From the NCBI RefSeq assembly GCF_009914755.1, contig NC_060927.1: 64,000 nt of DNA; one strand, given 5' to 3'. Under the pieces are notes generated by a model, which searched no databases, was not told the DNA's origin, and saw only the letters and a program-made list of their open reading frames with translations. Positions within the stretch are counted from its first letter, which is position 1. Every line of letters starts with the position of its first letter. This DNA comes from the human T2T-CHM13v2.0 reference genome, Homo sapiens. The position numbers and the translations under genes were made by a program. This document shows positions 18,980 to 19,309 of this stretch, one piece after another.

Positions 18980-19015
18980 CTACACTTGATCTTAGCCAAA
19001 AGACCGAGAAGCAAT
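18980..19015 (-). pseudogene. U2 snRNA pseudogene fragment (U2 nt 1-36)
   Basis: Reverse complement ATTGCTTCTCGGTCTTTTGGCTAAGATCAAGTGTAG matches U2 5' end ATCGCTTCTCGGCCTTTTGGCTAAGATCAAGTGTAG at 34/36. Confidence 0.93.
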
Positions 19016-19309
19016 GCGGTGGCTCACACCTGTAATCCCAGCACTTTTGGAGGCCGAGGTGGGCAGATCATGAGGTCAAGAGATCGAGACCATCGTGGCC
19101 AGTATGGTGTAACCTCGTCTCTACTAAAAATACGAAAATTAACTGGGTGTGGTGGTGCATGCCTGTAGTCTCAGCTACTTGGGAGGCTGAGGCAGGAGAA
19201 TTGCTTGAACCGGGGAGGCAGAGGTTGCAGTGAGCCGAGATTGTACCACTGCACTCCATCCTGGTGACAGAGCAACACTTTGTCTCAAAAAAAAAAAAAA
19301 AAAAAAAAA
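19016..19309 (+). mobile_element. AluSc-like, lacking ~8 nt at its 5' end, fused to the U2 fragment
   Basis: Starts GCGGTGGCTCAC; diagnostic GGTCAAGAGATCGAGACCATC; A23 tail. Confidence 0.95.

What the first reader, a model, noticed from the sequence alone, without database searches (positions are those of the whole stretch)
18980..19309. Head-to-head U2 snRNA / AluSc chimera, apparently one insertion reverse-transcribed from two different RNAs
Seen: U2 nt 1-36 lies on the minus strand and abuts, with no spacer, a plus-strand AluSc missing ~8 nt of its 5' end. One pair of direct repeats encloses both. Known: snRNA-retroelement chimeras such as U6-L1 usually arise by template switching and are co-oriented; U2 pseudogenes are often truncated near nt 35; twin priming yields inversions within one L1 RNA. 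Inference: the bottom-strand nick (acat|AAAAAG, 18915) primed on the Alu poly(A), the top-strand 3' end primed on U2 RNA, and the two cDNAs were joined. In support, the end of the target duplication (GAACTAGAAGCTA downstream; GAACTTAGACGCTA upstream) resembles GAACAGATACTA, the reverse complement of U2 nt ~34-45, which is the pairing needed to prime there.
Basis: partly seen in the sequence, partly recalled or inferred. Interest (0 to 1): 0.8.

Follow-up and report, generated by a model that had tools for sequence, protein, structure and literature searches.

The report
Inverted U2 snRNA–Alu retrocopy chimera
A 36-base piece of U2 spliceosomal RNA and an Alu element lie head-to-head inside one long duplicated target site in a CLSTN2 intron, most likely one ancient retrotransposition accident of a kind already described for small RNAs joined to LINE-1.

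Summary
Window 18980-19015 (minus) is U2 nt 1-36, 34 of 36 identical to the chr17 U2 gene. It abuts, with no spacer, a plus-strand Alu (19016-19286, first 8 nt missing) with a 23-A tail. One direct repeat encloses both: 18915-18982 and 19305-19375, 62 matches in 72 columns, and otherwise single-copy in the genome.

The Alu side carries a canonical L1 endonuclease site. The U2 side does not. U2 ends at the same single-stranded hot spot (nt 33-36), with the same 3-nt overlap with the target, as the other truncated U2 copies I sampled. 68 of those 80 are solo inserts with 9-24-nt repeats.

It is not new. Doucet et al. 2015 proposed this two-RNA "twin priming" for inverted U1, U2, U5 and U6 chimeras with L1 or SVA.

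Two things are unusual here: the Alu partner and the ~68-nt duplication. Two exact junction patterns found this locus alone in T2T-CHM13.

Orthologous empty sites could not be checked. I rate it a new member of a known kind, of modest interest.

The parts
18910..18919 (-). First (bottom-strand) nick site. The bottom strand reads TTTTT/ATGTG, and the nick falls between 18914 and 18915.
   Evidence: Sequence. It matches the L1 endonuclease TTTT/A preference quoted in PMC4476161 (section 8) and PMC12016303 (Table 1 passage).
18915..18982 (+). Upstream copy of the target-site duplication (68 nt). Its last 3 nt (CTA) are shared with U2 nt 34-36.
18980..19015 (-). U2 snRNA nt 1-36. The 5' end is intact and the copy is 3'-truncated, 34 of 36 identical to the chr17 U2 gene.
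19016..19286 (+). Alu element lacking its first 8 nt. It is about 12.6% from a majority consensus of 15 nearby Alus.
   Evidence: (SRP/Alu-type match at 19142-19288).
19287..19309 (+). A-tail of 23 A. The last five may belong to the duplicated target.
19305..19375 (+). Downstream copy of the target-site duplication (71 nt).
19369..19382 (+). Second (top-strand) break, ...GAAGCTA/TTTTAC, between 19375 and 19376. The 3' end made here is the inferred primer on U2 RNA.
   Evidence: Sequence; complementarity test.

Best explanation
This is one L1-ORF2p-mediated insertion that copied two unrelated RNAs, that is, twin priming in trans.

Shown by the sequence: the layout [target copy][U2 nt 36 to 1, inverted][Alu nt 9 to end][A-tail][target copy], a canonical endonuclease site next to the A-tail side, and overlap between the other end of the target and U2 nt 34-36.

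Inferred steps:
1. ORF2p nicked the bottom strand at TTTTT/AT, and the T-run primed reverse transcription on the Alu poly(A).
2. The top strand was broken about 68 nt downstream.
3. Its 3' end (...GCTA) paired with the single-stranded branch-point-recognition stretch of a U2 snRNA (nt 34 onward) and primed a second cDNA that ran to U2 nt 1.
4. The two cDNA ends were joined without microhomology, at U2 nt 1 and Alu nt 9.
5. Fill-in duplicated the 68-nt stagger.

The element is an old, inert intronic relic. The divergence of the Alu, U2 piece and repeat copies is mutually consistent.
For: (1) No spacer, and one repeat pair around both pieces. The repeat is otherwise single-copy (89% identity, E 1e-13).

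(2) Neither piece has its own convincing short repeat (scores 3 and 6.5).

(3) Among 80 other truncated U2 places (77 independent, because three pairs share flanks), 68 have 9-24-nt repeats abutting both ends under the criteria, and 63 under the stricter test. The window's U2 lacks such a repeat. None of the 80 has an Alu 5' end abutting U2 nt 1.

(4) The U2 end point is the genome-wide hot spot. Alignments end at nt 35 or 36 in 48 of 80 places. The last U2 nt before the repeat is nt 33 in 17 of 63, the modal class and the same as here. The 3-nt overlap is typical: 15 of 68 solos have a 3-nt overlap and 24 of 68 a 2-nt overlap.

(5) U2 nt 27-46 are unpaired in the Rfam consensus structure.

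(6) The downstream target end matches U2 nt 34-47 at 11 of 14 positions with one gap. 166 of 20000 random window 15-mers reach that score.

(7) The endonuclease consensus is on the Alu side only. After the shared TAG the U2-side target reads CTT, whereas solos have A at positions +4, +5 and +6 in 36, 36 and 33 of 63.

(8) The same architecture and explanation are published for U1/L1, U2/L1, U5/L1, U5/SVA and U6/L1 (PMC4476161, section 6).

(9) The ages agree. U2 differs at 2 of 36 positions. The Alu has 33 substitutions, 11 of them CpG transitions. The repeat copies differ at 5 substitutions and 2 indels in 72 columns.
Against: The duplication is about 68 nt, far outside the 9-24 nt of the 68 solo U2 inserts. 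It is also outside the 10-17 bp that PMC2912911 quotes for 17 inverted L1 inserts in HeLa cells.

Six of the seven differences between the repeat copies fall in the 24 nt next to U2, and the ancestral state is unknown. If the upstream copy is ancestral, the complementarity to U2 drops (score 3.5 against 6.5).

The U2 offset used is not the single best. 3 of 174 offsets reach the observed score and one exceeds it.

There is no microhomology at the U2/Alu joint.

Twin priming of any sort is very rare for Alu: 1 of 5936 germline Alus in PMC12016303, and one case in PMC2912911.

The 18 nt before the Alu loosely resemble the start of the downstream repeat, which would allow an Alu-only TSD. That resemblance is common by chance: 246 of 20000 random 26-mers and 6 of 127 TAAAAA sites reach it.

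No orthologous empty site was seen.
Confidence: 0.75

Rival explanations
1. Two independent insertions. A tailless U2 (nt 1-36) retrocopy went in first with an exceptional 55-65-nt duplication. An Alu later inserted exactly at its 5' end, using U2 nt 1-18 as its own roughly 18-nt target duplication. The reverse order is also conceivable.
For: Tailless U2 nt 1-35/36 copies are abundant: 400 places, and 68 of 80 sampled are solo. Alus often land in or next to their A-rich repeats (L071, L105, L094, L092 and L116). The 14 nt before the Alu align with the start of the downstream repeat with 3 mismatches (score 6.5). The implied nick (TTTT/G type) and the 18-nt length would be ordinary.
Against: The downstream copy equals the upstream target start apart from one 4-nt indel. 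Deriving it from U2 nt 1-18 instead needs at least 3-4 changes, next to 38 bases with no change at all. The resemblance is at chance level for A-rich sites (6 of 127). The U2 insert would still need a duplication 2.5 times longer than any of the 68 solos, at a site that is not endonuclease-like in U2 orientation. Exact abutment is required. By my own arithmetic (about 400 U2 ends, times roughly 4e-4 Alu 5' ends per base, times one orientation in two), about 0.1 such abutments are expected genome-wide.
Confidence: 0.1
2. One Alu insertion with filler capture. An ordinary Alu TPRT event was sealed at its 5' junction by end joining that trapped a pre-made U2 cDNA fragment, which was not primed by the target's top strand.
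For: The U2/Alu joint has no microhomology, as in blunt end joining. Capture of stray nucleic acid at breaks is known generally (recalled, not checked here). The long stagger suggests irregular processing.
Against: A free fragment has no reason to end exactly where target-primed solo copies end. It also has no reason to overlap the target by 3 nt with extended complementarity (166 of 20000).
Confidence: 0.1
3. The structure is not a retrotransposition product. It would be a DNA-level rearrangement or a pre-existing tandem duplication into whose junction the pieces fell, or an assembly artefact.
For: Only the unusual repeat length.
Against: The A-tail sits directly against a canonical endonuclease site. 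U2 begins precisely at RNA nt 1, with no U2 gene flank. The repeat is found nowhere else in the genome.
Confidence: 0.03

Closest known systems
Inverted snRNA/retrotransposon chimeras attributed to twin priming (Doucet et al. 2015, PMC4476161, Fig. 1 and Group IV; seven cases: U1/L1, U2/L1, U6/L1, four U5 with L1 or SVA)
   Same: The snRNA is 3'-truncated with an intact 5' end and lies in the opposite orientation to the retrotransposon. One TSD surrounds both. The endonuclease consensus appears only when read in the retrotransposon's orientation. There is complementarity between the snRNA and the target at the junction, and the truncation falls in a single-stranded segment.
   Different: The partner here is an Alu. 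That paper found no inverted snRNA/Alu case, only two co-oriented U6atac/Alu. The TSD is about 68 nt. Their U2 set was limited to copies at least 97.5% identical, so this 34-of-36 copy probably lay outside it. Their Table S1 is a PDF I could not read.
Tailless, 3'-truncated U2 retropseudogenes (Denison and Weiner class III; Schmitz 'tailless retropseudogenes'; Doucet section 8)
   Same: The U2 segment (nt 1 to about 35), the priming hot spot and the 2-3-nt overlap with the target are the same.
   Different: Solos are flanked on both sides by their own 9-24-nt repeat at an endonuclease-like site read in U2 orientation. Here the 5' side is an Alu and the site is not endonuclease-like in U2 orientation.
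U6/L1 and other template-switch or RNA-ligation chimeras (Buzdin 2002/2003, Garcia-Perez 2007 and Moldovan 2019, as cited in PMC4476161 and listed)
   Same: Two RNAs are copied in one L1-driven event inside one TSD.
   Different: Those are co-oriented, usually carry a full-length snRNA, and are made from a single continuous cDNA.
Classical twin priming, the 5' inversion of one L1 RNA (Ostertag and Kazazian 2001; not read, known through PMC2912911 and PMC12016303)
   Same: Two primers from the two sides of a staggered break produce cDNAs of opposite orientation that are then joined.
   Different: There the inverted segment comes from the same RNA. For Alu this is nearly absent (1 of 5936; one case in human-chimp comparisons).
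Antisense 5S rRNA, tRNA-half and U5 chimeras with LINE-1 (bioRxiv 10.1101/2025.02.02.635956, passages read)
   Same: A small RNA 5' fragment ending in a loop lies antisense to the polyadenylated partner, and the authors attribute this to twin priming.
   Different: That catalogue is built around LINE-1 as the partner.

Membership tests
Inverted snRNA/retrotransposon twin-priming chimera (Doucet 2015) | 3'-truncated snRNA with an intact 5' end | tested here: met
   U2 nt 1-36, 34 of 36 identical; the next bases do not follow U2.
Inverted snRNA/retrotransposon twin-priming chimera (Doucet 2015) | Opposite orientation to the polyadenylated partner, with the 5' ends facing and both inside one TSD | tested here: met
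   The TSD length of 68/71 nt is atypical.
Inverted snRNA/retrotransposon twin-priming chimera (Doucet 2015) | L1 endonuclease consensus when read in the partner's orientation, not in the snRNA's | tested here: met
   TTTTT/AT on the Alu side and GCTA/TT on the U2 side. Solo U2 targets are A-rich after the overlap.
Inverted snRNA/retrotransposon twin-priming chimera (Doucet 2015) | Complementarity between the target end and the snRNA at the truncation point, in a single-stranded segment | tested here: met
   A 3-nt exact overlap. 11 of 14 positions match with the downstream copy (166 of 20000 random reach this), but the match is weaker with the upstream copy. The segment is unpaired in the Rfam structure.
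Inverted snRNA/retrotransposon twin-priming chimera (Doucet 2015) | Partner is a 5'-truncated L1 (or SVA) | tested here: not met
   The partner is an Alu lacking 8 nt. I treat this as a difference of member, not of mechanism.
Inverted snRNA/retrotransposon twin-priming chimera (Doucet 2015) | Both pieces arrive together; the empty orthologous site holds one target copy | not testable with these tools
   No primate genome other than the window's own assembly is held.
Solo tailless U2 retropseudogene | Its own 9-24-nt repeat abutting U2 nt 1 and the truncation point | tested here: not met
   The best local score for U2 alone is 3. 68 of 80 sampled places meet this feature.
Template-switch snRNA chimera (U6/L1 type) | snRNA co-oriented with, and 5' of, the partner | tested here: not met
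   U2 is on the opposite strand.
Alu with classical 5' inversion | The inverted segment derives from the same Alu RNA | tested here: not met
   The inverted segment is U2.

The most novel reading that the evidence does not exclude
This would be a trans twin-priming event started by an Alu RNP rather than by L1 RNA. It would be the only near-full-length inverted U2/Alu junction that two exact patterns find in T2T-CHM13. It would show that ORF2p working on an Alu template, with no L1 RNA in cis, can also launch second-strand priming on a nuclear snRNA. It would also suggest that an unusually distant second break (68 nt) leaves a long 3' flap that recruits U2 through its branch-point-recognition stretch.
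Probability: 0.6. Interest if true: 0.4.

Novelty: new member of a known kind. Interest (0 to 1): 0.3.

Why it matters
The locus adds an Alu-partnered example to the small published set of inverted snRNA chimeras. Those chimeras are used as natural records of what ORF2p does at the second-strand break, a step of retrotransposition that is still poorly understood.

Alu inserts almost never show twin priming. A case where the second primer picked up a different, nuclear RNA therefore bears on where and with what RNAs the Alu-ORF2p complex finishes integration. The 68-nt duplication is a rare in-vivo example of a very long stagger.

The element is a single, old, non-functional relic, and the mechanism is already in print, so the gain is incremental.

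Tried and rejected
1. Ancestral target from paralogues. Both flanks are single-copy, so the direction of the six clustered differences could not be set.

2. Orthologous primate loci. No collection here holds them.

4. Doucet Table S1, which lists the chimeras, is a PDF and unreadable. The one readable supplement is a p-value matrix of no use here. I therefore cannot exclude that this locus is listed there.

5. Is there a class of inverted snRNA/Alu junctions? Two exact U2/Alu junction patterns returned only this locus, and a U5/Alu pattern returned none. These patterns need exact anchors and an Alu truncated by no more than about 25 nt, so diverged or more truncated cases would be missed. U1 and U6 were not tried.

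6. A role for the likeness between the reverse complement of U2 nt 1-18 and the start of the target. I rejected it as near chance (246 of 20000; 6 of 127).

7. U2 homology continuing into the upstream repeat copy, which would mean a longer U2 insert. I rejected it because the upstream copy is less U2-like than the downstream one.

8. Five sampled U2 places without a clear repeat (L057, L094, L098, L102, L109) were checked for an abutting inverted Alu, and none has one. The upstream flank of L057 is essentially single-copy. L1 partners could not be screened because I had no L1 reference.

9. The Alu subfamily was not assigned, for lack of a repeat library. The consensus comes from only 15 mixed Alus and overstates divergence.

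Full report
WHAT IS THERE

Read on the plus strand, window 18900-19400 has the following layout:
- unique flank ending ...ACAT;
- a 68-nt segment, 18915-18982;
- the reverse complement of U2 snRNA nt 36 to 1, at 18980-19015, whose last three bases are shared with the preceding segment;
- with no spacer, an Alu from 19016 to 19286;
- 23 A, at 19287-19309;
- a second copy of the 68-nt segment, 19305-19375, here 71 nt;
- unique flank beginning TTTTAC.

Rfam's U2 model finds the minus-strand piece. It scores 38.7 bits, under the gathering score because only the first fifth of the RNA is present, with E 1.2e-05. Against the real U2 gene on contig 17 (L001), nt 1-36 align ungapped with two C-to-T differences.

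The 36-mer is not a chance string. It has 400 matches in the genome at up to 3 mismatches, against 0 for the reversed control.

The Alu lacks the first 8 bases seen in intact Alu 5' ends of loci L071 and L105. It is 12.6% from a rough majority consensus of 15 nearby Alus, with 33 substitutions, 11 of them CpG transitions. The median of the other 15 is 10.7%. I could not check the name AluSc.

THE DIRECT REPEAT

The two copies share 62 of 72 aligned columns, with 5 mismatches and indels of 4 nt and 1 nt.

Searching the whole T2T assembly with either flank returns only the flank itself and the partner copy (89% identity, E 1e-13), apart from one unrelated 33-nt hit. So this is a local duplication made at this site, not a repeat family.

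Neither piece has a repeat of its own. The best local match for U2 alone scores 3. For the Alu alone it is a 14-nt stretch with three mismatches, score 6.5.

WHAT TRUNCATED U2 COPIES NORMALLY LOOK LIKE

I fetched 80 of the 84 other listed places that are not full-length genes. One search listed 100 of the 400 places, and the sample covers all those with 0 or 1 mismatch plus the listed 2-mismatch ones up to contig 3. Three pairs share flanks (L037/L038, L039/L042, L073/L074), leaving 77 independent inserts.

Alignment to U2 ends at nt 35 or 36 in 48 of 80.

By the criteria, 68 of 80 have a direct repeat of 9-24 nt (median 15) abutting both U2 nt 1 and the truncation point. These have no A-tail, and the repeat overlaps the U2 end by 1-8 nt in 67 of the 68. 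A stricter right-anchored test passes 63 of 80.

Of the 12 that failed, seven show the repeat in the printouts (L043, L045, L056, L058, L068, L110, L116). Five stay unresolved (L057, L094, L098, L102, L109).

None of the 80 has an Alu 5' end abutting U2 nt 1. The nearest is L094, with a 54-nt spacer. No repeat exceeds 24 nt.

This reproduces Doucet et al. 2015 (PMC4476161, sections 5 and 8, read). They report 57 of 58 characterised U2 copies as 3'-truncated and mostly TSD-flanked, with truncations in single-stranded segments and complementarity to the target. They interpret these as L1-driven internal priming.

HOW THE WINDOW'S COPY DIFFERS AND WHAT THAT IMPLIES

It uses the same U2 end point. 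The last unambiguous U2 base is nt 33, the modal class (17 of 63). The overlap is the typical 3 nt.

The primer, however, is on the other strand. Read in U2 orientation the target is not endonuclease-like: after the shared TAG it reads CTT, whereas solos have A at +4, +5 and +6 in 36, 36 and 33 of 63. Read in Alu orientation, the site next to the A-tail is TTTTT/AT, the canonical L1 endonuclease site.

U2 nt 27-46 are unpaired in the Rfam consensus structure. The 3' end of the downstream target copy matches U2 nt 34-47 at 11 of 14 positions with one bulge. 166 of 20000 random window 15-mers and 3 of 174 U2 offsets reach that score, one of them exceeding it. The upstream copy scores lower, 3.5 against 6.5.

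The simplest account is one event:
1. Alu RNA was reverse-transcribed from the first nick.
2. U2 RNA was reverse-transcribed from the 3' end created by a second break 68 nt away.
3. The two cDNAs were joined.
4. The stagger was filled in.

The layout, sites and overlaps are shown by the sequence. The order of steps is inferred.

RIVALS

Two independent insertions would require all of the following:
- a solo U2 insert with a repeat 2.5 times longer than any of the 68 sampled solos, at a non-canonical site;
- an Alu landing exactly at U2 nt 1;
- an Alu TSD derived from U2 nt 1-18 that then mutated at 3-4 positions into the exact sequence of the original target start, beside 38 bases without a single change.

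The likeness between U2's 5' end and the target start that makes this rival conceivable is common among A-rich sites (6 of 127; 246 of 20000 random).

Capture of a free U2 cDNA at the Alu's 5' joint explains the blunt junction. It does not explain the hot-spot end point or the overlap with the target.

I give the single twin-primed event 0.75, the two-insertion rival 0.10, the capture rival 0.10, and other explanations about 0.03.

POINTS AGAINST, OR UNEXPLAINED

The 68-nt duplication is exceptional. PMC2912911 (passages read) quotes 10-17 bp for 17 inverted L1 inserts in HeLa cells, and "extremely long TSDs" only with 5'-truncated L1.

Six of the seven differences between the repeat copies lie in the 24 nt next to U2. 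Three of them fall in one octamer (TGGAACTT against CAGAAC-T), and its upstream-copy form repeats a GGAACTT lying 17 nt to its left. One short conversion could therefore account for those three. Without an outgroup this stays open.

WHAT IS KNOWN

Doucet et al. 2015 (section 6, Fig. 1 legend and conclusion, read) describe seven chimeras (U1/L1, U2/L1, U6/L1, and four U5 with L1 or SVA) with these features:
- a 3'-truncated snRNA inverted against the retrotransposon;
- one TSD around both;
- the endonuclease consensus only in the retrotransposon's orientation;
- junction complementarity.
They name the process twin priming. They found no inverted snRNA/Alu case, and they restricted U2 to copies at least 97.5% identical, which this copy (34 of 36) does not reach.

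A 2025 preprint (10.1101/2025.02.02.635956, passages read) extends antisense small-RNA/LINE-1 chimeras to 5S, tRNA halves and U5.

Twin priming of Alu itself is rare. One of 5936 germline Alus and 1 of 130 somatic Alus show it (PMC12016303, passages). PMC2912911 found one 5'-inverted Alu among human- and chimp-specific inserts (passages).

My searches of the paper library turned up no description of an inverted U2/Alu chimera. Unreadable supplements may hold one.

IS IT A CLASS?

Two exact junction patterns (the inverted U2 piece, a gap, then an Alu 5' motif) find this locus alone in 3.1 Gb, with control 0. The equivalent U5/Alu pattern finds none.

The patterns demand exact anchors and a nearly full-length Alu. 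The claim is therefore "very rare", not "unique".

VERDICT

The mechanism is already described, and this is a new member of that kind, with an Alu partner and a very long TSD. Interest is modest at 0.3.

Noticed in passing
window 18956-18982 vs 19350-19375: Six of the seven differences between the two target copies cluster in the 24 nt next to U2. Three of them sit in one octamer, and its upstream-copy form repeats a GGAACTT found 17 nt to its left (18952-18958 and 18969-18975). This suggests one short conversion or slippage event rather than three separate mutations.
   Followed up: partly
window 18998-19015 vs 18915-18929 and 19305-19323: The reverse complement of U2 nt 1-18 loosely resembles the start of the duplicated target (AAAAG...GAGAAG). 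The resemblance is near chance for A-rich sites (6 of 127; 246 of 20000).
   Followed up: yes
window 19140-19191 and 19208-19266: There are sub-threshold Rfam matches to mir-1268 and mir-3135 inside the Alu (45.5 and 34 bits, against gathering scores of 83 and 80). These are Alu-derived families and nothing specific to this locus.
   Followed up: no
L037/L038, L039/L042, L073/L074: Three pairs of truncated U2 copies share their flanks and repeats. One pair lies on different contigs (1 and 6). These U2 retrocopies were therefore carried along in later segmental duplications.
   Followed up: no
L092 and L116; L071 and L105: Tailless U2 copies are inserted inside Alus with their own short repeats (L092, L116). 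In L071 and L105, Alus start right after the A-rich repeat of a U2 copy. This shows independent reuse of the same endonuclease-friendly sites.
   Followed up: no
L109: A U2 copy reaches nt 72 and is followed by an A-rich tail, with no detectable repeat. It belongs to a different class (polyadenylated, truncated) from the tailless copies.
   Followed up: no
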